From the IMG/VR virus record IMGVR_UViG_3300029686_000225: DNA of 48,664 nt; one strand, given 5' to 3'. Origin of the DNA: a virus (lineage: Duplodnaviria; Heunggongvirae; Uroviricota; Caudoviricetes). Below, one piece after another: positions 700-22,727 of the stretch. Under the pieces are notes generated by a model, which saw nothing but the letters and a program-made list of their open reading frames with translations, did no database searches and was not told the origin of the DNA. The position numbers were made by a program, and so were the translations under genes. The stretch's first letter is position 1. Each line of letters opens with the position of its first letter.

Positions 700-1055
700 C
701 AGTGAGTGACCTCTTCAAAGGTACAGTTAAAATCGGTATACATGGCATTATCCGAAATGCTCCACTCCCTGCAGACAACCCGGACAGTCCTGTTGTGTTT
801 TGGCGGACGCCACAAAAAAGCACGAATCCCGGCATGACGGGATAAAAAACTGTCCAGCGCGGCACGGGAGTATTCATCTGTGACACGAAATACCGGTTTA
901 AACGTTTTCAGATCCGCATTCAGACCACCAGCCCGTCGCTGTTCATATCCGTCACCAAACTTTACCGTAATAACTGATGGCTTTCGTGTCGTCTCCATCC
1001 CCTCACGGGGGATCCAGTTAAAAACTTCAGGCTCAGGCACTGTATAATCCTCCAT
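699..1055 (-). CDS. phage minor tail protein M (lambda gpM-like)
   Basis: VKFGDGYEQRRAGGLNADLKT motif matches lambda gpM VRFGDGYSQRAPAGLNANLKT; ATG at 1055 chosen, 998 and 1085 are alternatives. Confidence 0.7.
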   Translation of the reverse strand: MEDYTVPEPEVFNWIPREGMETTRKPSVITVKFGDGYEQRRAGGLNADLKTFKPVFRVTDEYSRAALDSFLSRHAGIRAFLWRPPKHNRTVRVVCREWSISDNAMYTDFNCTFEEVTH

Positions 1056-4000
1056 CCCGACGCGATGACTGCATAATTGACACAACCCTGCTGTCGATCA
1101 GATCCACCAGTCCCCTGGCTGAGCGCGTATCTATCTCGCCATTGCTCCCTTGATTCTGAATGCTGATGTGATACACGGGAGAATAAACAAATCCACCGCC
1201 ACCATTCACATTGCCAATGGCTCTGACCCCAAGAGAGCCGTCCGCTGCCCGTGTCAGTGGCATGATAGCTTCAGGCCCGGCCTCGCCCATCAGCCCGGCA
1301 CCTTTCGCAAAAGCAAAATACGTCGGTGTATCCACAATAGTGTTACTGTAAGCACTCAGATTTGCCGATGTGTAAACACCACCTTTTGCGTTTGCCACCG
1401 CCCCCGAAATCCATCCGCCGACCGTACCAAGCCACCCTCCGGCACCGGAGAGTGACTTCAGTCCGTTAACAATGGCCGCATTCATCAGAATTTTTGAAAC
1501 TTCCCGGAGAACTGAACTCCCCCAGTTCCTCCACTCCACAACATTCCCGGCCAGTGCATCGGAAATATTTGATACCAGCCCGTCCATCGTGGAAACGACA
1601 GCATCTGCCGCCTGTGAAGCATAATCGGTGGCACTGTCTGCCCAGTTGGTCAGTCCCTCCTGGAGTCCGGCATTCCAGTTATTACGTAAAGCATCGGCCT
1701 TTGCATAATAATCCTGCTGATCGCTGAGACGCTCTTCCAGATATTTTTTATTCAGTTCTTTCTCCTGTTTCCACAGGGCTTCTTCAATTTCTCCGGCCTG
1801 ATACTGTCTCAGCAGCTCGTTATTTTTCTGCTCAAACTCATGCCGGATACTCCACATTTCCTGGAGTCGTTCACGCATCCGTGAGCCTTCACCATATCCC
1901 AGCAACTGCGCGTCGTCAGATGCCCGGGCACTGGCATTACTGTCCGCCAGACTGCTTTCATACGCGGCAAACTGCTCACGAATCTTTTTCTGGTCGATGA
2001 GTGCTGCATTCTGCAAAAGCGTTTTTTTCTGCGCTTCTGACAGGGTTGATAATTCGCCCTGACTGACCTGATATTTCATCTTAGCCAGTTCAGTATTCTG
2101 CCCTGCCAGTGCTATCTGTTCTTTTTGCTGTTTAATCAGCCGTTTATAAATATCTTCTGTTTTTTCCGCTTCGGTCTTTTTATGCGCTTTGGGTTTATTT
2201 GCCTGGTTATTTCGCCAGGCATCCAGTGAGTTATTGATATAATTCTGTCTGGCTGTCTGATACACCTCCCCCACAAAGCCGAGATCATCCGCAGCATAGC
2301 CCAGTCGGGCACGCTCACGCGCTTCCCCCTTAAGGCGGGACAGAGCCAGTTCGCGCTTGCTGTTATTCAGTGCGGTCTGCTGTTTATCATCCAGAGTTGC
2401 CTGTGGTAGCCGTAACGGTACATTCACCAGCCCCTGTCGCTGCTGAAGTAATTCATTACCAAGCCCGAGAAGGCGATTAAACTCGGTATGCTGCCCATTC
2501 ATGATCAACAGGGACTGATACGCTTTATTTTGTTCCGCCGCCTGTTGACGGATCAACGCCACCCGTCGCTCCTCCAGCCCGGCAAGCACATCCTGAATGG
2601 ATTGCGCTTTGCCCTGCATTTGAGTGAGACGGGATTGTTCAACTGCCAGTTGATTTGTTGCTTCGGCAAGCCCTTTAAGGATGATTTCAGCACCCGAACC
2701 ACTCTGCGAACTTTCATCAAGCCAACGTTGATAATCAGCAATTTGATTTTTCAGTCCGCGAATTTTTCCTTCCTGTTCGCTAATCAGGCGATTTTGTTCC
2801 TCCAGTGCCTGCCGCGTCTTTTCCTCATTATCTGACGCTTCAGGAAGCGACATTGCCGACGTTTTCTGGCGAATTTCGTCGATTGTTGCGGCATACTGGC
2901 GTGCAGATTCTCTGGCCTGCTCCTGATTCTGATACATCGTGTACCAGGCCGCGGCCCCCAGCATGACAAGCCCCGGCACCCCACCAACCAGTCCCAGTGC
3001 TCCACTTAACAGACGACTTCCCACTGACGTGACAGTATTCAGCATTGTCTGTGCTGCTGTTCTGGCCGCAATATTACGGGTAAGTGATGCCTGGGCAGCA
3101 GCCAGTTTCGCTTCTGCGGCTGCCTGCCTTTCGGTACCGCGAGCAGCAACAACCGCCTGTTGCGCACGATAAACCGCCGCACGCGCCCTGGCTGTTGCTA
3201 TCTGTGTCCCCCGGAGCTGCGCTTCCGCAAGAGCCACTTCGTTTCTGGCTGCAGTAATTAATCCGGCAGTTGCAGATCCAGCAGAAGACGCCATATTGCC
3301 AAAATATCGGGCTACCCCGACGGCAACCAGAGCACCGGCAGCGGTTGCCACAGTGTCAATATTGCCTGCAATACCATTCAGCACACCGGAGAGCGTCTTC
3401 GTCACTCCGCTTGCCTCGTTCGCACCACCAACCCAGGCCATAAAGGCGTTTTCAACTTTGGTTGCAGAGGATGAAACCGTATCAGGCATTGCCGCATATT
3501 CATCACGTAATGCCCCAAGCTGACTAATCAGTGCAGGAACAACCTTATCGGCGGTCAACTTTCCGTTATCCGCCATGGCCTTCAGATCCTTACGGGCAAC
3601 CCCCATTCCCGCAGCCAGCGCACGAATAACACGATCGCCGTTCTCATTCACCGAGTTAAACTCTTCACCGCGCAGCACTCCCTGCGCCAGTGCCTGACTG
3701 AACTGCGTGATCACCGAACTGGCTTCTGCTGTACTGGCACCGGATAATTTCAGGCCCGTGGAGATCGCCTCGGTGACTTTCAGTACCTCCTCAGAACTGT
3801 AACCATACTCCCGCATGGAAGCTGCAGAACGGGCAAAAAGGCTGGCGTTATCAGAAAACGCCGTCCCCGTTCTCTGGCTGATCGCCATTAATTCACGCTG
3901 TGATGCCTGAAAATCATCACTGGACTGTGAGGCCTGCTTCAGACGGGCATTTACTGAATTCCACTCATCGGCGAGAGAAATAAGATGACCGGTAGCAAAA

Positions 4001-4239
4001 GCCCCGGCAAATGCCCCCGCCATATTCAGTGCCGAAGATTTAGCTGTATTTATCTGATCCGTCACTTCTGCCAGTGCACGCCGCATTTCACGGGATGCAG
4101 CAGCGGACTGCCGGCTTCCGTTCTGCATGGTACGGTAGTAATCCTGCCCCATACGCGAAGCCCGGGAGATCTCTGACTGGAATGACCGGGAATTTGCCGA
4201 GATTTTAATAATCAGTTCACGTAATGTCGCCACACTCAT
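1033..4239 (-). CDS. tail tape measure protein (lambda gpH-like)
   Basis: 1068-aa Ala/Gln-rich, coiled-coil-rich ORF between the G/GT chaperone and gpM; ATG at 4239 preceded by GGAG. Confidence 0.9.
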   Translation of the reverse strand: MSVATLRELIIKISANSRSFQSEISRASRMGQDYYRTMQNGSRQSAAASREMRRALAEVTDQINTAKSSALNMAGAFAGAFATGHLISLADEWNSVNARLKQASQSSDDFQASQRELMAISQRTGTAFSDNASLFARSAASMREYGYSSEEVLKVTEAISTGLKLSGASTAEASSVITQFSQALAQGVLRGEEFNSVNENGDRVIRALAAGMGVARKDLKAMADNGKLTADKVVPALISQLGALRDEYAAMPDTVSSSATKVENAFMAWVGGANEASGVTKTLSGVLNGIAGNIDTVATAAGALVAVGVARYFGNMASSAGSATAGLITAARNEVALAEAQLRGTQIATARARAAVYRAQQAVVAARGTERQAAAEAKLAAAQASLTRNIAARTAAQTMLNTVTSVGSRLLSGALGLVGGVPGLVMLGAAAWYTMYQNQEQARESARQYAATIDEIRQKTSAMSLPEASDNEEKTRQALEEQNRLISEQEGKIRGLKNQIADYQRWLDESSQSGSGAEIILKGLAEATNQLAVEQSRLTQMQGKAQSIQDVLAGLEERRVALIRQQAAEQNKAYQSLLIMNGQHTEFNRLLGLGNELLQQRQGLVNVPLRLPQATLDDKQQTALNNSKRELALSRLKGEARERARLGYAADDLGFVGEVYQTARQNYINNSLDAWRNNQANKPKAHKKTEAEKTEDIYKRLIKQQKEQIALAGQNTELAKMKYQVSQGELSTLSEAQKKTLLQNAALIDQKKIREQFAAYESSLADSNASARASDDAQLLGYGEGSRMRERLQEMWSIRHEFEQKNNELLRQYQAGEIEEALWKQEKELNKKYLEERLSDQQDYYAKADALRNNWNAGLQEGLTNWADSATDYASQAADAVVSTMDGLVSNISDALAGNVVEWRNWGSSVLREVSKILMNAAIVNGLKSLSGAGGWLGTVGGWISGAVANAKGGVYTSANLSAYSNTIVDTPTYFAFAKGAGLMGEAGPEAIMPLTRAADGSLGVRAIGNVNGGGGFVYSPVYHISIQNQGSNGEIDTRSARGLVDLIDSRVVSIMQSSRRDGGLYSA

Positions 4240-4279
4240 TCTCCGGACGAAAAAAAACCGCCGAAGCGGTTATGTTGAC

Positions 4280-4591
4280 TCACTGAGACACTATTAAAAG
4301 CGCGTTTTCCAGTCCGGCAAATGGATCTGATACGCCTTCTATCTGCTCCTTCTCCCACTGAAGAAGCGCATCATTCAGTGGCACTTTGACCCCCTGCGCA
4401 CCGTAAACAGCTGAAACAATCTGGGCAGCCCGGATATCAGCCCGTTCGTCTCCCAGCGGGCTGAACCTGTCAAATTCTGCCCACATCATGATTTCTGATG
4501 CGGACATTTCCCGGCGTAACTCTGACAATGTGCGCCCCATCCTGAGCGCCAGCATCATCAGAAAACGCATCCCCGGAAGCGCTACTTTTTT
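4280..4591 (-). CDS. tail assembly chaperone T-like extension, made as a -1 frameshift fusion with the upstream G ORF
   Basis: ORF in the -1 frame relative to G, starting inside the G 3' end; slippery A AAA AAG at 4585-4591 just before the G stop. Confidence 0.6.
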   Translation of the reverse strand, partial: KKVALPGMRFLMMLALRMGRTLSELRREMSASEIMMWAEFDRFSPLGDERADIRAAQIVSAVYGAQGVKVPLNDALLQWEKEQIEGVSDPFAGLENALLIVSQ

Positions 4592-4968
4592 TTAACCTCT
4601 CCGGCATCACTGATCAGTTCCAGAGACTGCCGAAGAAGCCGCGCATGCACCGGGCCATACACGGCAATCACCTGTTCACGATCATCCTCTGAAAATACAG
4701 GTTGCAGTCCGGTATCACACAGAACATCAATGAACAGTTCAACGTCCGCCTCCAGATTTCGGCGGGCACGCTCTGCAACAGATGGCGATGTATCATCTTC
4801 CCTGGCTTTAACGATCTCCTGCCAGCGCAACCAGGCTTCTGCAGAAGGTTCCCGTAATACAACCGTTGCTCCCTCCCATTCAGGCACATCAACGGTTTTA
4901 TGGCGAAACCCCGACATCGTTGCCAGTGCCAGATTACGGATATTTTTAGTCATCACATCCATCCTCAT
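4582..4968 (-). CDS. tail assembly chaperone (lambda gpG-like)
   Basis: 128-aa acidic ORF between major tail and tape measure genes ending ...GEVKKK*; start overlaps the major tail stop as TAATG. Confidence 0.75.
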   Translation of the reverse strand: MRMDVMTKNIRNLALATMSGFRHKTVDVPEWEGATVVLREPSAEAWLRWQEIVKAREDDTSPSVAERARRNLEADVELFIDVLCDTGLQPVFSEDDREQVIAVYGPVHARLLRQSLELISDAGEVKKK

Positions 4969-5672
4969 TAACTGACGGTTACAGTGCAGGAAGTGGAGGT
5001 CACTTTGTTAACCGGGCTTGCTGAATCAGAAATCTCGCAGGTATACGCACCGGCATCACCAGATGCTGCTGATGCCTTACTGAACGTTGCCGCCGTCTGT
5101 CCGGAAACAGGAGAACTACCTTTCTTCCAGACATAAGAATAAGGCGGCACACCACCGGCAGCCTCAACCACCATTTCGAGTTTCGCTCCGGCAGAAACCT
5201 GCAGCGTGCTGTTTAAATCGACCTTCACTTTCAGCGGCTCTGTCGTCAGCACAGGTTTACCTTTCAGGCGCAGGGAAAACGTTGCAGCCACAACACCATT
5301 GGTTCCTGCAGACCAGGTATGCTGACGCACCTCTGCCATAAAGGTAAATCCGTTTCCTGACGGAAAAATAACTTTAAAGCCATACGTGGTGTCATTGTCA
5401 TAGGCACTGCGCAACGCGTTCTGGGCAGCATTGAGGTAAAAGTTGCCTGACATGGAAATCTCTGACGCGGCACCAAGACCGTTAATATTTTCCTGCTCAA
5501 CAGAACACAGCGTGGTGACATCAATATCCTGCTTTTGTCCTGCGGTAAACTGCACCTCTTTGATTGTACAGCTCAGGCCAAGATAGCTGGCAGAATCCAG
5601 GGTTTCTGCTGTTACCGGTGCAGACGAAATCATAATTTTCGTCAGTTGCGAACGCTCAAAATTAGAGGACAT
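4968..5672 (-). CDS. major tail protein with C-terminal Ig-like domain
   Basis: Position upstream of G/GT and tape measure; ATG at 5672 preceded by AGGAG with 6-nt spacer; Ig-like C-terminus (GGVPPYSYVWKK...YTCEISD). Confidence 0.8.
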   Translation of the reverse strand: MSSNFERSQLTKIMISSAPVTAETLDSASYLGLSCTIKEVQFTAGQKQDIDVTTLCSVEQENINGLGAASEISMSGNFYLNAAQNALRSAYDNDTTYGFKVIFPSGNGFTFMAEVRQHTWSAGTNGVVAATFSLRLKGKPVLTTEPLKVKVDLNSTLQVSAGAKLEMVVEAAGGVPPYSYVWKKGSSPVSGQTAATFSKASAASGDAGAYTCEISDSASPVNKVTSTSCTVTVS

Positions 5673-5684
5673 ACTCGTCTCCTG

Positions 5685-5710
5685 AAAATAAAAAACCCGC
5701 CAGCGGCGGG
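5685..5710 (-). terminator. GC hairpin plus U-run immediately upstream of the major tail gene RBS (possible attenuator)
   Basis: Minus strand reads CCCGCCGCTGGCGGG then TTTTTTATTTT. Confidence 0.35.
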
Positions 5711-5731
5711 TGGGTAAAATCATTAACGACC

Positions 5732-11260: not shown

Positions 11261-11274
11261 TTGGTAAGAATATT
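11261..11274. repeat. left junction repeat of inserted element (att core TTGGTAAGAATATT)
   Basis: 12 of 14 identical to 26211-26224; 7-bp perfect core TTGGTAA; lies in terL codons L-T-K. Confidence 0.7.
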
Positions 11275-11520
11275 TCAAGTTTTTTAAAATCACCTGTATA
11301 TCAATCGTTTAACATGAAAAAACAGTCTTTATAAATCATCAAGCAATACACAGCGCAATACACGTATCTGTATTGTTTTAATGCTGATACACACCGTTTT
11401 TTGATATAGTGATTCGACCTACCATCGCGAAGCATTTTTTATTTCTTGTGTGTAACAATCTGACGAGGTGAGCACTCAAAGAGATAAGAGGCAGTAGAAA
11501 TTTCGATCCCCCCCTGAATG

Positions 11521-11701
11521 CAATTTTTCGTATATATATACAAAACAGCGCGGGTTATGCGGGTTAGCGGGTTATCTTCGCGTGCTAAGTATTTTTACTC
11601 TTTAATATCAATGCGTTAAAAAACAACGTATTTAAATATCAGCCAGAATGTAACCCGCAAGACATTCAAAATAACCCGCAAACACCCCTCAAATAACCCG
11701 C
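11521..11701. repeat. iteron cluster (GCGGGTTA x3 direct, TAACCCGC x3 inverted) with adjacent (TA)n tract
   Basis: Direct copies at 11550, 11559, 11567; inverted at 11651, 11672, 11694; alternating TATATATATA at 11531-11545. Confidence 0.7.
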
Positions 11702-11782
11702 AAAAACATCCCTGAAAGTGGGTACCGGTAATACTGAAAATTTATTCCATTAAATGAGCATTGTCCTCTCTCATCCATTCCG

Positions 11783-13444
11783 TTACACACCATCAAACGC
11801 CGCAAGCCGCTCTTTGTGGCTGTCGCTCATATCGAATGCAAATTCCTCATGCTCTGCCTGGAATGTGCCAAACGCCATCAGCGCCGCAACGCTCGGGTCT
11901 ATCTTGTTGGATGATTTTTTCTTGTTCGGCTTGATATTGGCGTTCGCGTCACTCTGCATCACAACATTACTCATTGACCAGGCCAGCACCGGATCACCAC
12001 GATGCACAATCACCTTCCGGTTAACAAAAACTTCGAACGATTTCGCCGCCGGACTGAAACGAAGGTATGTTTGCGGGAACGGCTCCACCTCAAATCCTGC
12101 GCCCTGTAGCTGCGTCCTCAGGTGCGTGGCGTTCCATGTATCGAAACCCACCAGCCTGATATTGAAATTCTCTGCATCCGCCATGATGTCATCACGGATA
12201 CGGTCATAATCAATGCAGTCACCCGGTGTTGTGCGTATCCAGCCCGCCTTTACCCACTGGCGATAGATGGCGCGGTTTTTATTGGCGGGGTTCTGTAGCT
12301 GAAATTCCGGCAGATAGTGACGGGAAACCAGCATAATCTTTTTACCGACCGGAAAGGCATAGCACACGCTGGAAATATCGCTGGTTGATGATAAGTCCAG
12401 CCCCGCGTAGCACTCCTGCCCGTATAAATCCGCCTCCGCGAACGTTCCGGCGCACTCCGCCCATGCACCATTACCCATCCACGGCGTAGCCCCCTGACAC
12501 CAGATATTGAATCGCTTGGTGAGCATTTCCACCCACTGCGACGGAATACCCCGCGCTTTCTGGATGGTTGAGGCCAGTTTTTCACGATCGACGGAAACAT
12601 CGATATTGGGATTCGCCTTTATCCACATCTCCGGATCGTCAACCTCGCTTTCATCATCCAGCTCGTAAATCAGCACGAACATGGATTCGTTCACCTCTTC
12701 ACCATCCAGTATCTGGCAGCAATAGTCGTAGTGTTGTTTACAGGCTGAAACAACGTTGCTCCCCGATGTGGTGATGGCAAATAATAACCCCTCCGGGCGT
12801 GCCCCCATTCCCAGTTCAAGCGCGGAATAAACCCCGTTGTCAGGGTGCAGGTGATATTCATCCACAATGGCAAGACTCGGGTTTGTACCTTCAATGGTTG
12901 CCGCTTTTGCTGCCAGCGGCTTTAACAGGCTGTTGGTTTTTGGGTGTATCACCTTGTGTGCCTGAATATTTACCCGCTTTCGTAACGGTCGGGATAAAAG
13001 GCACATCTGACGCGCATCATCAAACACGATCCGCGCCTGATCACGACTCACGGCGGCGGTGTAAATATCCTGCTGCCCGTTTTCCATAACCAGAAACCAG
13101 TTAGCCAGGATAGCGGCGACCGTGGATTTGGCATTTTTTCGCGGTACTTCAATGAATGCGCTGGTGTATTTGCGCCGCCCGGTGGCCTTAACCTTAAAGC
13201 CCAGGATGCACGCAAAGGCGAACTGCTGCCACGGCTCCAGTTTAATTGGGCTACCGCGCATTGCGCCTTTTACGTGCGGACACACCCTGGAAAAGGCAAT
13301 AAACCGCTCCACGACCTCCGGATCGAACGTGTAAAGGGGGTTTTCAAGGTCATAAAAATACCGTTTAACGGCCTGTTTCAGTCGTTTACAGGCCGTAATT
13401 TTGCCGTTTTTTACGCCTTCTGCGTACTCATGCCAGGCGGTCAA
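11783..13444 (-). CDS. terL: terminase large subunit (satellite copy, intact)
   Basis: 553 aa; P-loop-like region RKNAKST, Walker B IVDEYH, C-terminal nuclease domain; TTG start with GAGGA RBS, overlapping terS end. Confidence 0.9.
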   Translation of the reverse strand: MTAWHEYAEGVKNGKITACKRLKQAVKRYFYDLENPLYTFDPEVVERFIAFSRVCPHVKGAMRGSPIKLEPWQQFAFACILGFKVKATGRRKYTSAFIEVPRKNAKSTVAAILANWFLVMENGQQDIYTAAVSRDQARIVFDDARQMCLLSRPLRKRVNIQAHKVIHPKTNSLLKPLAAKAATIEGTNPSLAIVDEYHLHPDNGVYSALELGMGARPEGLLFAITTSGSNVVSACKQHYDYCCQILDGEEVNESMFVLIYELDDESEVDDPEMWIKANPNIDVSVDREKLASTIQKARGIPSQWVEMLTKRFNIWCQGATPWMGNGAWAECAGTFAEADLYGQECYAGLDLSSTSDISSVCYAFPVGKKIMLVSRHYLPEFQLQNPANKNRAIYRQWVKAGWIRTTPGDCIDYDRIRDDIMADAENFNIRLVGFDTWNATHLRTQLQGAGFEVEPFPQTYLRFSPAAKSFEVFVNRKVIVHRGDPVLAWSMSNVVMQSDANANIKPNKKKSSNKIDPSVAALMAFGTFQAEHEEFAFDMSDSHKERLAAFDGV

Positions 13445-13784
13445 GCTCGTCCTCTTCCTCTGTTTCCGGTGGATTTCTGCGGCGGCTTACCGGGTCAAAA
13501 CCCAGCAAAGAAGCCATTTTGATCATTATTCTTTCTGCGTCAGCCTTTGCGCTCAGAGCGGGGTTTCTGCTTTCGCTGCCCTGACTGTTAACAATGCTGA
13601 AGCCGCGCGTCGCAAGGTCTTCGACGGCTTTGCGGTATATGGAGTAGTTAACGCAATACAGTTCCAGATTGCTCCAGTCGGCGGGGGTAAGGTCTTCCCG
13701 CCCGGAAAGCTGGCGCGATTTTTCCTTCCACTGCCTGACCGCGATTTCATCCAGGTAAGCGGGGGCTTTTGGTGGTCTTGCCAT
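13428..13784 (-). CDS. terS: terminase small subunit (P27 family)
   Basis: Starts MARPPKAPAYLDE; homologous to the prophage TerS (MSGPPKTPPRL...); immediately upstream of terL. Confidence 0.8.
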   Translation of the reverse strand: MARPPKAPAYLDEIAVRQWKEKSRQLSGREDLTPADWSNLELYCVNYSIYRKAVEDLATRGFSIVNSQGSESRNPALSAKADAERIMIKMASLLGFDPVSRRRNPPETEEEDELDRLA

Positions 13785-14072
13785 GTTCTTTTTTCGCCCA
13801 ATTATTTTCAAAAAAATTTCCGTGCACAAAAATTTGAGGAGGCGGTCGGTGTCCGGCAGGGACGGTTTTGTCCTGAAAACCTCCCCCACCCCCTCTGACG
13901 GCCTCACCAGCGATTGCGAAAACATTCCATGACCTCGCGGTCACGGTCGGTTAATCGCTTCGCTGTGGTGCGTTCTGTGCGCCCTGTCCTGTTGGCTTTG
14001 TGCCCTGTCTCCTGTGTCTTCCATAAGTCACGCTGCCTTATCAGTCCACGTATCAGCCTGTTTTGCTCCTGT

Positions 14073-14513
14073 TCAGTCATCATCGCCATACATCCAGTCG
14101 TTACGGTGTGCCGCCCGTTCTTCCTGCTCGCGATACATACCCGCCTTACGGTTCGCTTTCGTGGCTGGATCTTCCCGTGTTGTCTTACGGTTATGGCACG
14201 TCTGGCACAATGCCTGGTGGTTCCACTCAGGCCAGAAGAGAACATCACCGCCGCCATTGATGGGAATGATGTGATCCACCACAAGAGCTGGCGTATAAAT
14301 CCCCTTAGCCAGACAACGCACGCATAACGGATTTTTGCTCAGGTACAGGGCGCGGTATTTGTCCCACTGTCGGGAATACCCGCGCGCGCGGCGGTGTCCC
14401 CGTCTGGCATCCTCTGCACGCCATGCAGCCCGCCTGTGATCTTCGCACTTGCCGGACTTCACGCGCTTATTACAGCCCGGCTCAGTGCATCGCCTTAATG
14501 GTTGCCACGGCAT
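14073..14513 (-). CDS. HNH endonuclease (packaging-associated)
   Basis: Cys-rich Zn motifs and HNH core (DHIIPINGGG ... CQTCHNRK); located upstream of terS. Confidence 0.85.
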   Translation of the reverse strand: MPWQPLRRCTEPGCNKRVKSGKCEDHRRAAWRAEDARRGHRRARGYSRQWDKYRALYLSKNPLCVRCLAKGIYTPALVVDHIIPINGGGDVLFWPEWNHQALCQTCHNRKTTREDPATKANRKAGMYREQEERAAHRNDWMYGDDD

Positions 14514-14812
14514 CAGTACACCCCTACATCACGATAAACCGACCAGAGCGCAGAAATAGCCATAGGCAGTTCAGACTGCTCCACAGGTGAAACCGCTTCC
14601 CTGTTCTCGTACAGGAAAGCGATGTACATCAGGCAACCAACACGTATTGCCGGGGTAAATTCCAGCCCGTCTTCAAAACGTTTCCCGATATGCTTCTGGC
14701 AGGCTTCCAGCGCCGCATCGGTATACATTTTCAGAAGTTCGCCTTCTCCGGAAAAGTCATCAAGGCGAAGATGTGCCCTGACTTCATCAGGTGTAATTTT
14801 TTCTTCACTCAT
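14513..14812 (-). CDS. gp6-like head-tail connector protein
   Basis: Starts MSEEKITPDEVRAHLRLDD, the gp6-like signature; GGTGA RBS. Confidence 0.65.
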   Translation of the reverse strand: MSEEKITPDEVRAHLRLDDFSGEGELLKMYTDAALEACQKHIGKRFEDGLEFTPAIRVGCLMYIAFLYENREAVSPVEQSELPMAISALWSVYRDVGVY

Positions 14813-16019
14813 CTTTTTCACCTTTAATTTCCACCGTCTGCTTCCATGCCTGGCTGAATTCGTCGCCACCTTCACGCGGCGGCATCCCCTCACGTTCGCG
14901 GGCTTCGTTCGGATTCATGATCCCGTTCTTAATCCCTTTCTCATACGTGGCGTAACGTTCGGTAGGGGTGGCGCGTAATAAATCGGCTGAATCAAACTCA
15001 ACCAGATAACGGGTACCAGGTACGGGAGAAGCCACCAGCAAAGCGGCCTTAATTTGCTGTTCGAAGTTCGCCAGCCATGGGCGCATTGTCATGGTCAGAA
15101 ACGCGCGGCTTGCCTCGCTGAAATTGCTGTAGGTGCTGTTGCTGTATTCCTGCAGAAAAATAGGCGATACGTTGAACATCCGGGCGATGTCTTCAATGGA
15201 GAAGCGACGGGAGGCCAGCCATTCCGCATCCTGGTTACTCATCCCCAGTTGCTTGTAATCCATGCCCCCTTCAAGGATTGGCGTTTTTCCGGCATTTTTC
15301 GCCCCCTTGTAGCGTTCCAGGGCGTCTAATGCCTGTTTACCTTTCACGCCGTCCAGCCATTCGCCTGACGTGATAATCCCTGCCGCCATCATGCCATCTT
15401 TCATAATGCTGGCTCCGTGACGCTGTTGAGCAAGGCCAAGCCCCAGCGCCTCACGGCAAATCGTGACGGGGGAACGTCCCAGAAAGCCATCATCCGAGGC
15501 ATAGCGGAGATGCAGGACTTCTTCCTGTAAATACGTGCGTACCGTTCCTGTATAGGGTTCGGTGATGGTATAGCGGTATTTGTGTGCGCCTGTGCGTTCC
15601 GGTACAACACACCCCGGCGCATAAGGATGAAGTGATTTTGGCTGACCGTCCCGCCCCCATTCAATAACCGCATAGGCGTTACCGTTCAGCAGGCAGTGAC
15701 GCATCATTGTGCGTTTAAACTGGTAAGGTGTCTGGCACGAATTAGGCTGCTCATTCAGCAGAATATCTACCGGATGACTGTCCAGCCATTCCCGCGCCTC
15801 CCTGCCCTTGTCATTACGTACCAGATACAGATAACACGGCATCGTGGCCACCGCCTCAGCGATGACGGAAACCGCGTTCATCACAGCAGGCAATGATTCA
15901 GCCGTCCCGGCAGAAACATATTCTCCGGATCCGGTATTCGGTACGCCGGACAGCGCCAGAAAATCATCAATGGACAGGTTACGCAGATCGCTTTTTTTAC
16001 GACTAAAAGGCCACCACAT
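14805..16019 (-). CDS. portal protein, HK97 family (satellite)
   Basis: About 404 aa with portal-family pattern; start directly after protease stop. Confidence 0.85.
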   Translation of the reverse strand: MWWPFSRKKSDLRNLSIDDFLALSGVPNTGSGEYVSAGTAESLPAVMNAVSVIAEAVATMPCYLYLVRNDKGREAREWLDSHPVDILLNEQPNSCQTPYQFKRTMMRHCLLNGNAYAVIEWGRDGQPKSLHPYAPGCVVPERTGAHKYRYTITEPYTGTVRTYLQEEVLHLRYASDDGFLGRSPVTICREALGLGLAQQRHGASIMKDGMMAAGIITSGEWLDGVKGKQALDALERYKGAKNAGKTPILEGGMDYKQLGMSNQDAEWLASRRFSIEDIARMFNVSPIFLQEYSNSTYSNFSEASRAFLTMTMRPWLANFEQQIKAALLVASPVPGTRYLVEFDSADLLRATPTERYATYEKGIKNGIMNPNEAREREGMPPREGGDEFSQAWKQTVEIKGEKDE

Positions 16020-16020
16020 A

Positions 16021-16581
16021 TCACAACCCCGCCAGTTCAGCCCAGCGATGACGATTATTTCCTGTCGGGCGTAATTCAGGGTGCTGTGCAAACAACGAAC
16101 GGTGGGCAATCTCCACGCCGGATTCGGGATAAGCAGGCATCGACGTTATCGTGATTTCACGGAGTTCTGCGGCGGTAACAGTGCGCAGATACGGTTTTTG
16201 CGCGATATTCCATTCTTCGCATAATGCGCGAAAGCCAAAGCTCATTCCTGTAATGTCGCCACGCTCCACCAGCGTAAGCACATCTTTTCCAAGCTGGGTA
16301 TCAGGCGGTGTCAGTTCAAAACGTAGCCCGGTGTTGTCCTCAGTCAGTACCAGTGTTCCGGATTTGGTGCGCCCCAGCAGTCGGGTATAGTCATGCTCAT
16401 ACAGGCAGCGCACATCATTACCCGCCGCCAGATAGTCAGCAAAAGCCCCCGGCGTGAACTGTTCGCGGAATTCGTCCCAGATAATTTCTGAAAGGCTGTT
16501 CCAGCGAACGGCATAACCCACCAGTTTTTTATCGCTGGCGGTCAGTTCAGATGTACGGATTTCAAAATCGGTATTTTTCAT
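16021..16581 (-). CDS. prohead protease, HK97 family (satellite)
   Basis: About 186 aa; GGAG RBS; motifs LGRTKSGTL and MSFGF typical of the prohead protease family. Confidence 0.8.
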   Translation of the reverse strand: MKNTDFEIRTSELTASDKKLVGYAVRWNSLSEIIWDEFREQFTPGAFADYLAAGNDVRCLYEHDYTRLLGRTKSGTLVLTEDNTGLRFELTPPDTQLGKDVLTLVERGDITGMSFGFRALCEEWNIAQKPYLRTVTAAELREITITSMPAYPESGVEIAHRSLFAQHPELRPTGNNRHRWAELAGL

Positions 16582-16630
16582 CGGTGTACTCCATAAAGCT
16601 GAAAAAGGAGGCCGAAGCCCCCTTTGCTCA

Positions 16631-17776
16631 TTACTTGCCAGCCTGAATTTCCAGAATCTTGATGGCGTTCGAATCCACCACACCACCGCCCAGATATTTC
16701 TGGGTATAGATGTTAATGAATCCGGGTTCGCTGAAATCCGGACGGGTTCGCGTACCGGTTTCATGGTCAACGATGAAATAACCGCGCTTAAAGTCACCTA
16801 CTGCAATCACACCGTCCGGCATAAATTCCAGATATTCAACCGGAAGCCCCAGCAGAGAATCAGGATCACCAGCCTGTAAACGATCGCGCCAGATGTAATC
16901 ACCAGTGGCATTTTTCAGTTTTTGTGCGGAGGCGGCTGTATTTGAGTTCATCACCCATACAGCTTTTTTGCGGTACTTATTGCGTAGCGTAAATTTCAGG
17001 TCAATCAGCATGTCGGCGCTGAGACTGCCAGTCACTTTTTTCGTCTGGAGCGTACCGAAAGGACGGGTTTTGTCGTTATCCGCAGTGCGCGGAAAAGCCA
17101 GGAAACCTTTAGCTTTTTTCTCGCCATCACCAGAAACCAGATCCGTTTCTTCGGTATCAACGAAAGTGTCGCCAATTTCAGAAGATAACCAGCTCATAAT
17201 ATCGACTTCGGAAAAATCGATAATTTCCTGAGTGGTTTTTGGGTAAGCGTAGATCGGATACAGGCGGATACTGACTTCATTCAGTTTTGGGGTTGCCGTC
17301 TGGTTACGTGTAGTGCCTTCTTCACCGTGTTCAACGACCGCGCCCCCGGCAGAAACCAGTTGCTTAAATTCATTGCTGTGAATGGTTTTAACGGTACAGA
17401 TTTTACGCATCACCGATTCATCAGAAAGCTGACGCATAATTTCTCTGTTCAGTTCCGGGATAACCGTATAACCACCATCAGCCGGGACACTGCCAGACAG
17501 GTTGCGGGTTTCCCCGGTCAGAATGTAAGAGCGCAGTTCGTCTTTGGTTATTTTCTCTTCGACGGAAACACCAGGCTGGTTACGTTCTTCATCAGCCACA
17601 GATTCGAGGCGGGAAATTTCTGTGTCGAGGGAATCGGCTTTTGCACGCAGTTCATCAAACTGTTTGCCCTCGTCATCGTTCAGGCTGCGGTTTTCACTGT
17701 CGGCTTTTTCCAGCAGGGATCGCATCTGGTTTTTCAGGGCGGTTTTTTGCTGGCGGAGTTCGATTAATTTCTTCAT
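16631..17776 (-). CDS. major capsid protein, HK97 family (satellite)
   Basis: 381 aa with N-terminal coiled coil and HK97-like core. Confidence 0.9.
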   Translation of the reverse strand: MKKLIELRQQKTALKNQMRSLLEKADSENRSLNDDEGKQFDELRAKADSLDTEISRLESVADEERNQPGVSVEEKITKDELRSYILTGETRNLSGSVPADGGYTVIPELNREIMRQLSDESVMRKICTVKTIHSNEFKQLVSAGGAVVEHGEEGTTRNQTATPKLNEVSIRLYPIYAYPKTTQEIIDFSEVDIMSWLSSEIGDTFVDTEETDLVSGDGEKKAKGFLAFPRTADNDKTRPFGTLQTKKVTGSLSADMLIDLKFTLRNKYRKKAVWVMNSNTAASAQKLKNATGDYIWRDRLQAGDPDSLLGLPVEYLEFMPDGVIAVGDFKRGYFIVDHETGTRTRPDFSEPGFINIYTQKYLGGGVVDSNAIKILEIQAGK

Positions 17777-18013
17777 GAAGGTTTTCTCGTATTGGTTAAG
17801 ATTCAGGACGTGAAACCAACACGGAGGGAGCGCCGCCCGACACTCTCGGCATCTCGCAGATCAACCCGGCATCGCGCAGGGGGTCAGGCGGCATTGTGGC
17901 GGCTCACGTCTGAGTGCCACACGCCAACATATACATAAAAATCAGTATGTAAACATCAGCCAGAATCACCGAACAACCTGGAACAACCACGAACAAATAA
18001 TTTACAAAACCTG

Positions 18014-18040
18014 AAAAAAAGACCCGGAAAAATCCGGGCC
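18014..18040 (-). terminator. intrinsic terminator
   Basis: Hairpin CCCGGAAAAATCCGGG flanked by A-run and T-run; minus strand reads hairpin then TCTTTTTTTC. Confidence 0.5.
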
Positions 18041-18049
18041 TTTATCGCT

Positions 18050-18298
18050 TTATTGTTTCACTGGATCCCGCATTCTGCGTCTTATTTTCCACAGATATTC
18101 GATCATCGCTTCCACCTGCTCACGGTTGGTTGCGAAAATTTCCCCGGTCAGTGAGCTACGCAGAAAATCATGATGATCCACAACAAACAACGCATCGGAA
18201 GAAAGCAGACGGCGATATTTTTTTGCTGTCGTGGTTTCCAGATCATCAAAACCATGAAATTTTTTATGTTGCTGGACTTCTTCAAATGTCACTGGCAT
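18050..18298 (-). CDS. hypothetical protein
   Basis: 82-aa ORF with AAGGGGG RBS; no recognisable motif. Confidence 0.5.
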   Translation of the reverse strand: MPVTFEEVQQHKKFHGFDDLETTTAKKYRRLLSSDALFVVDHHDFLRSSLTGEIFATNREQVEAMIEYLWKIRRRMRDPVKQ

Positions 18299-18831
18299 GT
18301 ATCCCCCTTTACTGCCCGGCGCTGGCGCTTGTGCTTCTCATTCAGCGCCATCAGCCGCGTTTCTGCCTCCTGCTGTTCCTGTGGTGTCACCTCGCCGCAC
18401 GGCTGGCCTTTCAGGTCGTAACGTGCACCACCAGCCATTAAGGCGCGGTAATAGCGCGGAGACTGCGCATAGGATGCCAGCGTCGCACGTAATGCCCCCG
18501 GCCCGAATGTCAGCCCCCTGGCGGCGATATCCTGCATCAGGTCGTCGCATATCCCCACCTTAAGCGGCTTCGGTGCTTCCCGGCTGAATAAGTCAGGCCA
18601 CATCTCTGTGAGGCGGTTAACGCGCCTGCGGTTTTTGCGCTGGCGTTTGGTCATATGCCGCCACGGTGTCGCCTCTGTGGGCTTCTGTTTGCGGCTCTGC
18701 TGTGCGTTCTGATTGCCGGGCATCACTTTATGCGCCGATGTGGCTTTATCCTGCTGCTGTGCCGTCTGCGTTGTTTTCTGCGGCGTGCCGTAAATGCCTT
18801 TCGGTTTTCGGTTAATGGTCAGCGTTGTCAT
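18289..18831 (-). CDS. ProQ/FinO-family RNA-binding protein
   Basis: C-terminal region PLKVGICDDLMQD...LRATLASYAQSPRYYRALMAGGARYDLKGQPCGEV resembles the ProQ/FinO domain; basic N-terminus. Confidence 0.65.
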   Translation of the reverse strand: MTTLTINRKPKGIYGTPQKTTQTAQQQDKATSAHKVMPGNQNAQQSRKQKPTEATPWRHMTKRQRKNRRRVNRLTEMWPDLFSREAPKPLKVGICDDLMQDIAARGLTFGPGALRATLASYAQSPRYYRALMAGGARYDLKGQPCGEVTPQEQQEAETRLMALNEKHKRQRRAVKGDTCQ

Positions 18832-18867
18832 GCTTTCCCCTGTAATAACTCTGTTCGCTGTTGTGAA

Positions 18868-19293
18868 TTAAAACGGTATGTTATCCCCGTACGGGTCATC
18901 GTGCTGGCTTGTCTGTTGTTTTGCCCTGTTCAGTGCGTCAGTGGCCTGGCCCTGCTGGCCTTTTTTGCCGCCCGGTCGCGCCGTTCGCGCACTGATTACG
19001 CTGTCTGCGATAACCTGCCAGCCCTGTCGCGTTTCCCCGTTCTGGCCTGTCCACTGGCTTACCTGCATGTTACCCGCCACGCTCACCAGTTCGCCTTTGC
19101 GGTGTTTTGCCAGTGCGTCGGCCTGTCTGCCAAACGCCAGGACAGATAACCACATCGTCGCCGTTCCGTCATCTGCCTGGCTGCACGGCAGGGGAACCGC
19201 CATACTCGCCATAGCCATTTGTGTCCCCTTGCTGGTGGTCTTTAACTGCGGGTCAGCCACCAGCCGCCCGTAAGCCGCTATCTGTGCTGTCAT
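18868..19293 (-). CDS. ssb: single-stranded DNA-binding protein
   Basis: OB-fold pattern and acidic C-terminal tail ...DDPYGDNIPF. Confidence 0.8.
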   Translation of the reverse strand: MTAQIAAYGRLVADPQLKTTSKGTQMAMASMAVPLPCSQADDGTATMWLSVLAFGRQADALAKHRKGELVSVAGNMQVSQWTGQNGETRQGWQVIADSVISARTARPGGKKGQQGQATDALNRAKQQTSQHDDPYGDNIPF

Positions 19294-19357
19294 GCTGTCT
19301 GTTCTCCGGTTTTAACGTTGATTGTTACGCTTGTTTACACCCTTACGGTGAAATTCT

Positions 19358-19480
19358 GCGGGTTATAATCGCACTTTTGCGGGTTATAACTGCCGTTTTG
19401 CGGGTTACGTGCGGGTTATTGATTTCCTTTTTATTCATACAGTTAATGCACTTATGCACAGGATAACCCGCATAACCCGC
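19358..19480. repeat. candidate replication origin iterons (GCGGGTTA x4 direct, TAACCCGC x2 inverted)
   Basis: Direct copies at 19358, 19379, 19400, 19411 (21, 21, 11 bp spacing); inverted at 19464, 19473; immediately 3' of the primase-helicase gene. Confidence 0.7.
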
Positions 19481-19503
19481 AACTTTTCACCTCACACAGG
19501 GGG

Positions 19504-21627: not shown

Positions 21628-21938
21628 TTTGCCTTTCCCCGTTCACGAATAATTTCACGTACTGCCTTAATGCGTTCCATTCCTGTAACGCGCATGATTC
21701 TGTCGATGTCGCTTAATTCTGCTGGTGGTGCTTTGCTTACCAGGGTGAACTCCCTGTCAAAGCGCATATGTGACGACACGCAGGGATGCGCATAACCTTC
21801 GCGGATATAGGTCACACGAAAATCATCGACGGTTTTAATCGTTATCGTGCTGCCGTATTTATCCCGGAAAATATCACCGGGGCGGATTTCAGGCCGAGCG
21901 TGACCGCTGGCAGTAAAGCCAGAATTTTTCTTTTTCAT
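21624..21938 (-). CDS. hypothetical protein
   Basis: 104-aa ORF; stop overlaps primase start (ATGA). Confidence 0.5.
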   Translation of the reverse strand: MKKKNSGFTASGHARPEIRPGDIFRDKYGSTITIKTVDDFRVTYIREGYAHPCVSSHMRFDREFTLVSKAPPAELSDIDRIMRVTGMERIKAVREIIRERGKAK

Positions 21939-21944
21939 GTTTTT

Positions 21945-22163
21945 TTACTCCAGAGGCAGCTTTTTAGCGGCGAGCTCAATATCAGATGTCAGAGAAACCT
22001 GTGTATTTGCCAGGTCTAACAACAAAGAAATAAGAATTTCTTCTCTGCTATCGGATTTATCGGTGCTAAGGCTGTTCATCCACATATTGACGACTTCCCT
22101 GATTTTTTTCGCAGAGTGCAGGGCTTCAAATGCCAGGTCTTCAATATCATGTTTATTTCGCAT
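21945..22163 (-). CDS. hypothetical protein
   Basis: ATG at 22163 with G-rich RBS; 72 aa. Confidence 0.4.
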   Translation of the reverse strand: MRNKHDIEDLAFEALHSAKKIREVVNMWMNSLSTDKSDSREEILISLLLDLANTQVSLTSDIELAAKKLPLE

Positions 22164-22594: not shown

Positions 22595-22691
22595 AGCTAC
22601 CTCGATACTTCTGCTATCGTTGGTGGTTAGAAGCCCTGCGAGTGGTAACGACACTTGCGGGGCTTTGCATTTATGCGCCTTGATAATTTTA

Positions 22692-22727
22692 AGGTGTGGC
22701 CCACTATATGTTTTAGGTGTGGCCCAC
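22692..22727. promoter_or_regulatory. two 13-bp direct repeats AGGTGTGGCCCAC in a divergent promoter region (candidate operator)
   Basis: Repeats at 22692-22704 and 22715-22727, 23 bp apart, followed by TATACT and the RHH gene RBS. Confidence 0.45.

What the first reader, a model, noticed from the sequence alone, without database searches (positions are those of the whole stretch)
4585..4591. Conserved programmed -1 frameshift site in the tail chaperone genes
The G ORF ends ...GTT AAA AAA AAG TAG. The heptamer A AAA AAG is a classic slippery site, and the -1 frame continues VALPG into the T-like ORF, reproducing the lambda G/GT mechanism.
Basis: partly seen in the sequence, partly recalled or inferred. 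Interest (0 to 1): 0.4.

Follow-up and report, generated by a model that had tools for sequence, protein, structure and literature searches.

The report
Tail chaperone G/G-T frameshift site
This is the well-known "slippery" signal that lets a small share of ribosomes shift back one base at the end of a phage tail-chaperone gene to make a longer fusion protein; it is real and strongly conserved but an ordinary, already described feature of HK97/lambda-like phages.

Summary
The chaperone gene G (4953->4582) ends GTT AAA AAA AAG TAG. The heptamer A_AAA_AAG is 4591->4585. A -1-frame TAA (4594-4592) and the G stop (4584-4582) bracket it, so the only place to pass from G into the 101-codon -1 ORF (KK|VALPGMRF...) is that heptamer.

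G is Pfam Phage_TAC_1 (HK97 gp13 family; PDB 2OB9, E 2e-49). The -1 ORF is Phage_tail_T. They lie between the tail tube and tape measure genes.

Of 84 loci compared (29-100% identity in G), 82 have T in the -1 frame and 80 have an in-frame A_AAG at the junction, 51 of them A_AAA_AAG. The junction Lys is AAG in 80/80, against 33% AAG elsewhere in G. No conserved RNA structure and no Rfam element were found.

The HK97, KS9 and Bcep176 records annotate the same -1 product. Antonov et al. 2013 measured 6-7% frameshifting for two genes of an HK97-like chaperone cluster.

Verdict: a genuine programmed -1 ribosomal frameshift giving G (13.9 kDa) and minor G-T (25.2 kDa). It is already known as a kind. 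It is closer to HK97 than to lambda, and RefSeq does not annotate it.

Side finding: a 14.95-kb capsid-forming-PICI-like island splits this prophage's terminase gene.

The parts
4582..4953 (-). G-like tail assembly chaperone gene (123 aa, 13.9 kDa). The start is most likely ATG 4953; in-frame upstream ATGs exist at 4968 and 4962.
   Evidence: Pfam PF06222 Phage_TAC_1, E 3.9e-58. PDB 2OB9, deposited as a tail assembly chaperone, E 2e-49. Relatives annotate a 372-nt CDS. Size.
4585..4591 (-). Slippery heptamer A_AAA_AAG, the last two sense codons of G plus the preceding A. It lies within an 8-nt A-run (4586-4593).
   Evidence: It is the only AAAAAAG in the window with the full frameshift signature. 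AAAAAAGTA is the only fully invariant block among 24 diverged relatives.
4582..4584 (-). Zero-frame TAG stop of G, directly abutting the heptamer. Read as part of GTA GCG (Val-Ala) after the shift.
   Evidence: The stop directly follows the AAG in 44 of 75 distinct junctions: TAA 28, TAG 16, TGA 0.
4592..4594 (-). TAA in the -1 frame immediately 5' of the heptamer. It closes the -1 frame upstream, so the shift can only occur on the heptamer.
   Evidence: -1 frame overlap with G = 7 nt.
4280..4585 (-). T-like segment in the -1 frame: 101 codons (VALPGMRF...LIVSQ) plus a TGA stop. Predicted to be expressed only as the C-terminal part of the 224-aa (25.2 kDa) G-T fusion, join(4953..4585, 4585..4280) on the minus strand.
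   Evidence: Pfam PF06223 Phage_tail_T, E 1.2e-18. PHROG 14766 positions 123-220, with G matching positions 1-121 of the same 224-position profile. Size.
4968..5723 (-). Tail tube (major tail) gene with a C-terminal Ig-like domain, immediately upstream of G. The true start is possibly ATG ~5672, since RefSeq relatives annotate 705 nt.
   Evidence: Pfam Ig_2/Ig_3, both at or near Pfam's threshold, plus sub-threshold matches to Phage_TTP_11 and Phage_tail_2. Annotation of relatives.
1033..4239 (-). Tape measure protein gene (1068 aa), immediately downstream of T. It is the presumed client of G/G-T.
   Evidence: Pfam Phage_HK97_TLTM, TMP_3 and Tape_meas_lam_C.
4248..4271 (-). Terminator-like hairpin AACCGC-TTCG-GCGGTT followed by T8, in the 40-nt gap between T and the tape measure gene. 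Context only; not part of the frameshift signal.
   Evidence: The HK97 record annotates a putative terminator at the equivalent place, just before gene H.

Best explanation
This is a programmed -1 ribosomal frameshift of the G/G-T tail assembly chaperone type. Most ribosomes translate G (4953->4585) and terminate at TAG, giving the 123-aa chaperone. A few percent slip back one base, with tRNA-Lys on AAA (P site) and AAG (A site) re-pairing with AAA AAA. They then read GTA GCG CTT CCG... and continue for 101 codons, giving a 224-aa G-T fusion (...GEVKKK-VALPGMRF...). By analogy with lambda and HK97, abundant G and scarce G-T together chaperone the tape measure protein encoded just downstream and nucleate tail tube polymerisation, without entering the virion. 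The signal appears to be minimal. It consists of the heptamer, whose conserved core is A_AAG, possibly assisted by the slowly decoded stop codon that abuts it. No conserved stimulatory RNA structure or properly spaced Shine-Dalgarno element is present. Shown here: the sequence anatomy, the family membership, and the conservation of frame and slip motif. Inferred: that slippage actually occurs, its efficiency, and the chaperone role.
For: Anatomy. The heptamer exactly fills the 7-nt window between the -1-frame TAA and the G stop. It is the only one of 28 AAAAAAG copies with this signature.

Identity. G is PF06222 and T is PF06223, lying between the tail tube and tape measure genes. PDB 2OB9 matches G at E 2e-49. 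G and T match positions 1-121 and 123-220 of one 224-position PHROG profile.

Conservation. 84 loci were compared: the window, 10 phages and 73 species-level prophages. T is in the -1 frame in 82, and an in-frame A_AAG sits at the junction in 80. The classes are A_AAA_AAG 51, G_GAA_AAG 8, A_GCA_AAG 7, G_GGA_AAG 6 and others. The junction Lys codon is AAG in 80/80, against 152/465 (33%) elsewhere in G. The G of AAG is kept whether the next -1 codon is Val (GTN) or Ala (GCC). Of 80 near-identical IMG/VR copies, 79 keep A8G while neighbouring codons vary.

No independent start. The Met at 4570 is present in only 24 of 80 relatives, while residues between the slip site and the first conserved Met are conserved (a Pro, then F-F/L-M). 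Public records pick three different T starts.

Precedent. The HK97, KS9 and Bcep176 records annotate the -1 joined product. Antonov et al. 2013 (PMC3711429) measured 6% and 7% frameshifting in E. coli reporters for two genes of an HK97-like tail assembly chaperone cluster. Permanent in-frame fusions are very rare: 3 of 104 database hits, all with indel or garbled junctions.
Against: There is no experimental evidence for this exact sequence. I could not establish that the two genes tested by Antonov et al. include this allele. The A8 run is within the range (n>7) that the same paper associates with transcriptional realignment, so part of the fusion could arise at the RNA level. An ATG lies 12 nt after the TAG (4570) and another at 4558, so termination-reinitiation producing free T cannot be excluded from sequence alone. 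The phylogenetic non-independence of the 84 loci inflates the apparent statistics. The role of the adjacent stop codon as a stimulator is my inference from general knowledge and was not tested.
Confidence: 0.88

Rival explanations
1. Transcriptional slippage (programmed transcriptional realignment). RNA polymerase stutters on the 8-A run and adds one A to a fraction of transcripts. This places T in frame with G and yields the same ...KKKVALPG... fusion without any ribosomal slip.
For: The run is 8 A. Antonov et al. 2013 list A_n with n>7 as implicated in transcriptional realignment. One relative (L012) differs by a single A in this run, which shows the run is indel-prone at some level.
Against: Across relatives the A-run ending at the junction is 3-4 nt in 29 of 80 and 6-7 nt in 41 of 80. 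What is conserved is the in-frame A_AAG or heptamer, not the run length. G_GGA_AAG, G_GAA_AAG and GCA_AAG sites cannot support polymerase stuttering. It may therefore contribute here, but it cannot be the family mechanism.
Confidence: 0.07
2. There is no recoding. T is made as a free protein by termination-reinitiation or independent initiation at ATG 4570 or ATG 4558 just after the G stop, as current RefSeq/GenBank annotations imply.
For: ATG codons lie 12 and 24 nt after the TAG. Public records annotate T as a separate CDS. In the Serratia and Burkholderia relatives the G stop overlaps an ATG (TGATG), a typical coupling arrangement.
Against: There is no usable Shine-Dalgarno sequence: GGGG directly abuts ATG 4570. 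The Met at 4570 is absent in 56 of 80 relatives. The -1-frame residues upstream of any Met are conserved, and the -1 frame is always open back to the slip motif. Annotators disagree on the start. PHROG 14766 models G+T as one 224-residue protein. Lambda T is known only as the G-T fusion (my knowledge of Levin et al. 1993 and Xu et al. 2004; neither paper was read here).
Confidence: 0.04
3. A chance or degenerate arrangement: an accidental A-run at a gene end, or a frameshift mutation that split a once-fused gene (pseudogene).
For: AAAAAAG is common in this AT-run-rich window, 28 copies. The prophage's terminase is interrupted by an island, so some decay of the prophage is conceivable.
Against: The same -1 relationship and in-frame slip motif recur in 80 of 84 loci down to 29% identity in G. 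In-frame fused versions are the rare exception. The terminase interruption is precisely reversible.
Confidence: 0.01

Closest known systems
Phage HK97 gp13 / gp14 (tail assembly chaperone and its -1 frameshift product; the match to PDB 2OB9 is taken to be gp13, from my knowledge)
   Same: Same Pfam family for G (PF06222), at 65% identity by tblastn or 66% in the MAFFT alignment. Same T domain and the same position between the major tail and tape measure genes. T is in the -1 frame, and the junction Lys aligns to the same column (K123). The HK97 record annotates gp14 as 'translated due to a -1 frameshift'.
   Different: HK97 reads CGG GAA AAG TCT..., i.e. G_GAA_AAG. This is not a canonical X_XXY_YYZ heptamer. 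It lies 15 nt before the stop and has a 49-nt overlap. The window has the canonical A_AAA_AAG abutting the stop, with a 7-nt overlap. HK97 also carries a moron gene (gp15) between T and H that is absent here.
Phage lambda G / G-T
   Same: Same logic and position: V - G - T(-1) - H. The T parts share Pfam PF06223. The slip site ends in A_AAG. A low-efficiency shift gives a minor fusion (efficiency of about 4% is from my knowledge of Levin et al. 1993, not read here).
   Different: Lambda G is PF06894 (Phage_TAC_2), with no detectable similarity to this G (BLASTP E 5.2). The lambda heptamer is G_GGA_AAG, 15 nt upstream of a TGA stop. T-T pairwise similarity is not significant by BLASTP (E 0.22).
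HK97-like 'phage tail assembly chaperone' GeneTack cluster (Antonov et al. 2013, NAR, PMC3711429)
   Same: A cluster of 41 prophage gene pairs similar to an HK97 protein, chosen for conserved A-rich slip motifs. Two members gave 6% and 7% frameshifting in an E. coli GST-MBP reporter. This window very probably belongs to the same family.
   Different: I could not confirm that the tested alleles are this one, because the held supplementary text does not list them.
E. coli dnaX gamma/tau frameshift signal
   Same: Identical heptamer A_AAA_AAG, read by the single E. coli tRNA-Lys(UUU) (for dnaX).
   Different: dnaX reaches ~50% through an upstream Shine-Dalgarno-like element and a downstream hairpin. 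Here the SD-like GGAGAGG is only 2 nt from the heptamer and is not conserved. No downstream structure is conserved. No Rfam frameshift element matches. In dnaX the shift truncates the protein; here it extends it.

Membership tests
Conserved G/G-T tail assembly chaperone frameshift of long-tailed phages (Xu, Hendrix & Duda 2004) | Two ORFs located between the major tail (tube) gene and the tape measure gene | tested here: met
   Tube gene 4968-5723, G 4582-4953, T 4280-4585, TMP 1033-4239, all on the minus strand.
Conserved G/G-T tail assembly chaperone frameshift of long-tailed phages (Xu, Hendrix & Duda 2004) | The downstream ORF overlaps the end of the upstream ORF in the -1 frame, with a slippery sequence in the overlap | tested here: met
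   7-nt overlap consisting exactly of A_AAA_AAG.
Conserved G/G-T tail assembly chaperone frameshift of long-tailed phages (Xu, Hendrix & Duda 2004) | Frame relationship and slip motif conserved among diverged homologues | tested here: met
   T in -1 in 82 of 84 loci. In-frame A_AAG in 80 of 84. AAG codon in 80/80 against 33% background.
Conserved G/G-T tail assembly chaperone frameshift of long-tailed phages (Xu, Hendrix & Duda 2004) | The downstream ORF lacks its own conserved translation start | tested here: met
   No SD at usable spacing. Met 4570 is present in only 24 of 80 relatives. Annotated starts are inconsistent. Reinitiation is not formally excluded.
Conserved G/G-T tail assembly chaperone frameshift of long-tailed phages (Xu, Hendrix & Duda 2004) | A fusion protein is actually made at a low, fixed ratio to G and is required for tail assembly | not testable with these tools
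   Only indirect evidence: 6-7% in reporters for two members of an HK97-like cluster.
Pfam PF06222 Phage_TAC_1 (HK97 gp13-like chaperone) | Score above the gathering threshold over the full-length profile | tested here: met
   195.2 bits against a cut-off of 25, profile positions 1-124 of 124. PDB 2OB9 E 2e-49.
Pfam PF06223 Phage_tail_T | Score above the gathering threshold | tested here: met
   67.8 bits against a cut-off of 25.9, profile positions 1-69 of 73. Lambda T matches the same family.
Pfam PF06894 Phage_TAC_2 (lambda gpG family) | Sequence membership of the G protein | tested here: not met
   The window's G hits only PF06222. Lambda G hits only PF06894. BLASTP between the two gives E 5.2.
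dnaX-type stimulated -1 frameshift signal | Upstream SD-like element ~10 nt 5' and a stable hairpin ~6 nt 3' of the heptamer | tested here: not met
   The SD-like GGAGAGG is 2 nt upstream and varies (GGC/GGT) in close relatives. The single-sequence fold places the next stem 16 nt downstream. RNAalifold on 24 relatives predicts no pairs. No Rfam match at E<=1.
Programmed transcriptional realignment | A long homopolymer run (roughly >=8-9 A/T) conserved as a run | tested here: inconclusive
   The window has A8, which is borderline. Relatives have 3-9 A, with 29 of 80 at <=4, so run length is not the conserved feature. A contribution in this allele is not excluded.

The most novel reading that the evidence does not exclude
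The zero-frame stop codon abutting the heptamer may be a functional part of the signal rather than an accident of a short overlap. In that reading, termination by release factor at A_AAA_AAG|TAG competes with -1 slippage of tRNA-Lys, so the G:G-T ratio would track release-factor and tRNA-Lys status. In this window that could be further modulated by the prophage's own degenerate tRNA-Lys(UUU)-like gene at 31845-31918. It would matter here because the tail module may be serving as tail donor for the capsid-forming island inserted in the same prophage's terminase gene. What supports this is limited. AAAAAAGTA is invariant in 24 diverged relatives. The stop abuts the slip site in 44 of 75 distinct junctions, as TAA or TAG and never TGA. 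The tRNA-like gene and the island are both present. None of the functional links was tested.
Probability: 0.1. Interest if true: 0.45.

Novelty: already known. Interest (0 to 1): 0.15.

Why it matters
For biology, it adds nothing new in kind. The G/G-T frameshift is a textbook example of recoding, and the HK97-type family to which this locus belongs has been predicted, annotated in reference phages and tested in reporters.

Its practical value is for annotation. The same module is present in 901 of 5,426 complete E. coli genomes. RefSeq calls it as two separate genes with an arbitrary start for T, so the real 224-aa product is missing from protein databases.

The family survey gives a useful generalisation. 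The conserved core is A_AAG, read by tRNA-Lys, not a canonical X_XXY_YYZ heptamer. About a quarter of members, including HK97 itself, lack a canonical heptamer.

Tried and rejected
(1) Xu, Hendrix & Duda 2004 (PMID 15469818) is not held in the library. Statements about it rest on my own knowledge and on citations in PMC3711429.

(2) I searched the supplements of PMC3711429 for the identity and sequence of the two tested tail-chaperone genes. They are not in the held text.

(3) The 11-sequence G alignment A1, which included Burkholderia and Halomonas, was too diverse for the search for related loci. I used the 7-sequence enterobacterial alignment A2 instead, so the genome sample is limited to Enterobacterales plus a few outliers.

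(4) Stimulatory RNA structure. The single-sequence fold has z = -2.9, with a hairpin that encloses the slip site and a stem starting 16 nt downstream. One pair of the enclosing hairpin is broken in most close relatives (GGA -> GGC/GGT). RNAalifold on 24 diverged relatives predicts nothing. I rejected it as a conserved stimulator.

(5) Rfam found no frameshift element or other family near the site.

(6) The +1 frame is open for only 37 codons after the G stop and carries no T domain. Rejected.

(7) Natural in-frame G-T fusions as 'Rosetta stone' evidence. Only 3 of 104 hits qualify, each from a single short contig with an indel or garbled junction. They are not useful as independent support, but they show that permanent fusion is not the maintained state.

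(8) Lambda G homology of this G was tested and rejected.

Full report
OBSERVATION. The genes in this part of the window run on the minus strand. Read on that strand, the 128-codon ORF 4968->4582 ends ...GCC GGA GAG GTT AAA AAA AAG TAG. Its start is probably ATG 4953, giving 123 aa. The heptamer A_AAA_AAG occupies 4591->4585, exactly the coordinates reported. The stop is 4584-4582, and the A-run is 8 nt long (4593-4586). In the -1 frame there is a TAA at 4594-4592. The frame then opens with AAA AAA GTA GCG CTT CCG GGG ATG... (KK VALPGM...) and runs 101 codons past the slip point to TGA at 4282-4280. The overlap in which a ribosome can pass from G into the downstream frame is therefore 7 nt, and those 7 nt are the heptamer. 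The +1 frame is open for only 37 codons. The bare motif is common in the window: 28 copies against 15.7 expected. But only this copy combines four things: a long upstream zero-frame ORF, immediate zero-frame termination, a -1 frame closed just upstream, and a -1 frame open for >100 codons downstream.

WHAT THE GENES ARE. The upstream ORF is a full-length Phage_TAC_1 (PF06222; 195 bits). The -1 ORF is Phage_tail_T (PF06223; 68 bits). The gene before them is an Ig-domain tail tube protein, and the gene after them is a 1068-aa tape measure protein with HK97_TLTM, TMP_3 and lambda-C domains. G matches PDB 2OB9, deposited as a tail assembly chaperone, at E 2e-49. In PHROGs, G matches positions 1-121 and the -1 ORF matches positions 123-220 of a single 224-position profile, phrog_14766. 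So the predicted 224-aa fusion (25.2 kDa; G alone is 13.9 kDa) is colinear with an existing protein family. The locus is a common E. coli lambdoid prophage module. It is present in 901 of 5,426 complete genomes and in 11 phage records at 95-99% identity.

CONSERVATION. I compared 84 loci: the window, ten phage records at 29-70% identity in G, and 73 prophages from different Enterobacterales species at 40-71% identity. T lies in the -1 frame in 82. The other two are visibly disrupted copies. In 80 there is a zero-frame AAG preceded by A inside the overlap. The classes are A_AAA_AAG 51, G_GAA_AAG 8 (the HK97 type), A_GCA_AAG 7, G_GGA_AAG 6 (the lambda heptamer), G_GCA_AAG 4, A_GAA_AAG 2 and two singletons. 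[quoted passage not shown] The junction lysine is encoded by AAG in 80/80, whereas elsewhere in the same G genes AAG is 152 of 465 Lys codons (33%). The G of that AAG is retained whether the following -1 codon is Val (GTN) or Ala (GCC). It is therefore not simply a by-product of a conserved T-frame residue. Among 24 diverged A_AAA_AAG relatives the only fully invariant block is AAAAAAGTA. Among 80 near-identical IMG/VR copies, 79 keep GTT-A8-G-TAG while the neighbouring Gly codon (GGA/GGC/GGT) and the codons after the stop vary. One copy (L012) has A7. The loci are phylogenetically related, so these counts are not independent trials. But the motif persists through at least eight different sequence contexts.

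DOES T HAVE ITS OWN START? In the window an ATG lies 12 nt after the TAG (4570), but GGGG abuts it directly, leaving no usable Shine-Dalgarno spacing. That Met is present in only 24 of 80 relatives. Meanwhile, residues between the slip site and the first conserved Met are conserved in the -1 frame: a Pro four to five residues in, then F-F/L-M. Public records disagree on the start. Phage Evi uses a 291-nt CDS, RefSeq/PGAP a 279-nt CDS, and phage 606R7 two fragments. Such disagreement is typical of an ORF that has no start of its own.

STIMULATORS. The single-sequence fold is somewhat more stable than shuffles (z = -2.9). It puts the slip site in the loop of a hairpin and places the next stem 16 nt downstream, further than classical stimulators. 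The enclosing hairpin loses a pair in most close relatives. RNAalifold on 24 diverged relatives predicts no pairs at all. Rfam has no match within 4200-5000 at E<=1. The SD-like GGAGAGG is 2 nt from the heptamer and is not conserved. What is frequent is a stop codon directly after the AAG: 44 of 75 distinct junctions, as TAA 28, TAG 16 and TGA 0. From general knowledge of P-site slippage, a slowly decoded A-site stop could favour the shift. This is an inference and was not tested.

MECHANISM AND RIVALS. The best explanation is a low-efficiency -1 ribosomal slip of tRNA-Lys on A_AAA_AAG, giving abundant G and scarce G-T. Three lines of precedent support it directly. The HK97 record annotates gp14 as 'translated due to a -1 frameshift'. 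KS9 and Bcep176 annotate joined products. Antonov et al. 2013 measured 6% and 7% frameshifting in E. coli for two genes of a 41-member HK97-like tail assembly chaperone cluster.

The main rival is transcriptional slippage on the A8 run. The same paper lists A_n with n>7 as implicated in realignment. But run length is not what is conserved: it is 3-4 A in 29 of 80 relatives and 6-7 A in 41 of 80. Transcriptional slippage can therefore be at most a contributor in this allele. Free T made by reinitiation is unlikely for the reasons given above. Chance or pseudogenisation is excluded by the comparative data. Permanent in-frame fusions are rare: 3 of 104 hits in a 5.8-billion-protein collection, each from a single short contig with an indel or garbled junction.

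COMPARISON WITH THE KNOWN. The membership needs correcting, though. G here is not a sequence relative of lambda G. Lambda G is PF06894, and BLASTP against this G gives E 5.2. Only the T domain is shared with lambda. Lambda's site is G_GGA_AAG, 15 nt before a TGA. The closest characterised system is HK97 gp13/gp14, at 65% identity in G by tblastn. HK97's own site is the non-canonical G_GAA_AAG, 15 nt before the stop. This window carries the commonest and most 'classical' version in the family. The heptamer is the same as in dnaX, but the dnaX stimulators are absent.

VERDICT. This is a genuine, strongly conserved and already known kind of programmed frameshift. It is unannotated in RefSeq for this prophage family. 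Interest is low (0.15).

NOTICED IN PASSING. (a) The window holds two sets of head and packaging genes. Alignment with the uninterrupted M19 prophage shows that window 11261-26210 (14,950 bp) is an insertion at about codon 342 of the prophage's large terminase gene. It is flanked by imperfect 10-bp repeats, TTTTTACCAA and TTCTTACCAA. The element encodes integrase, Bro-N, DUF4222, DUF927 primase-like, SSB, ProQ/FinO, capsid, S78 protease, portal, connector, HNH, TerS and TerL, and no tail or lysis genes. This matches the published core set and ~14-kb size of capsid-forming PICIs, which take only tails from a helper (PMC10085698; bioRxiv 10.1101/2025.02.11.637232). Precise excision would restore a 585-aa TerL 99.5% identical to M19's. 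The same TerL::integrase junction occurs in 36 of 5,426 E. coli genomes, including strain 042. [quoted passage not shown] I did not establish whether this particular target has been described.

(b) A tRNA cluster lies at 31771-31995 (minus strand). It contains a strong tRNA(CAU), a degenerate tRNA-Lys(UUU)-like gene with C33 and stem mismatches that PGAP does not call, and a sub-threshold tRNA annotated as Thr in RefSeq.

(c) Terminator-like hairpins lie at 4256-4271 (between T and the tape measure gene) and at 5695-5711 (before the tube gene). They mirror putative terminators annotated in HK97.

(d) A cytosine methyltransferase plus a HATPase-type restriction-enzyme-like pair lies at 35951-39149.

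Noticed in passing
window 11261-26210 (minus-strand genes); junction repeats at 26211-26220 and 11261-11270: A 14,950-bp integrase-bearing island is inserted at about codon 342 of the prophage's large terminase gene. It is flanked by imperfect 10-bp repeats (TTTTTACCAA / TTCTTACCAA). It encodes integrase, Bro-N, DUF4222, DUF927 primase-like, SSB, ProQ/FinO, capsid, S78 protease, portal, connector, HNH, TerS and TerL, and no tail or lysis genes. That is the architecture of capsid-forming PICI satellites, which take only tails from a helper. Precise excision would restore a 585-aa TerL 99.5% identical to an uninterrupted relative. The same junction is in 36 of 5,426 complete E. coli genomes, including strain 042. 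The prophage tail module, including G/G-T, is intact, so it could serve as the island's tail source. That link is untested.
   Followed up: partly
window 31771-31995, minus strand: Three tandem tRNA-like genes. The first is a strong tRNA with anticodon CAU (72.5 bits; RefSeq calls it tRNA-Ile). The second is a weak tRNA-like gene with anticodon loop CCUUUAA (UUU 'Lys', C at position 33, D- and T-stem mismatches; 33 bits); ARAGORN and some phage records call it tRNA-Lys, while PGAP leaves it uncalled. The third is a sub-threshold tRNA (26.7 bits), annotated tRNA-Thr in relatives. The cluster is common in lambdoid prophages. A tRNA-Lys(UUU)-like gene in a phage whose G/T slip site is read by tRNA-Lys is a curiosity only; no link was tested.
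   Followed up: partly
window 4248-4271 and 5685-5711, minus strand: Two intrinsic-terminator-like hairpins with T-runs bracket the tube-G-T block. AACCGC-TTCG-GCGGTT + T8 lies between T and the tape measure gene. ACCCGCC-GCT-GGCGGGT + T-run lies just upstream of the likely tube gene start. The HK97 record annotates putative terminators at equivalent positions. They might tune the stoichiometry of tail proteins within the late operon.
   Followed up: no
L083 (HK97) 1560-1590; L087, L114, L116, L120 (Klebsiella-type); L095-L099, L108: About a quarter of family members, including HK97 itself, have no canonical X_XXY_YYZ heptamer in the G frame. Examples are CGG GAA AAG, GCA AAG TAA and GAA AAG TAA. 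All of them keep A_AAG. So the conserved core of the signal in this family appears to be a single tRNA-Lys slip on A_AAG, often next to a stop codon.
   Followed up: partly
L012 (IMGVR_UViG_2529292907_000015) ~1855-1875; proteins P0001-P0003: One of 80 near-identical relatives has A7 instead of A8 at the slip site, which puts T out of the -1 register. Three database 'fusion' proteins have indels or garbled sequence at the same junction. These are either homopolymer sequencing errors or real replication-slippage variants of the slip site.
   Followed up: partly
window 35951-39149, minus strand: An overlapping gene pair: a C5 cytosine methyltransferase (365 aa; PADLOC MTase_II E 9e-91) and a 703-aa HATPase_c_3 protein matching type II restriction enzyme models (E 2e-34). 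This is a prophage-borne restriction-modification-like module.
   Followed up: no
L169 (E. coli M19, NZ_CP010221.1) 20028-20701, and RefSeq relatives generally: RefSeq/PGAP annotates G and T as two separate CDSs, with T starting at the second downstream ATG. There is no ribosomal_slippage join, although this module is in 901 of 5,426 complete E. coli genomes. The 224-aa G-T product is therefore missing from protein databases for this prophage family.
   Followed up: yes
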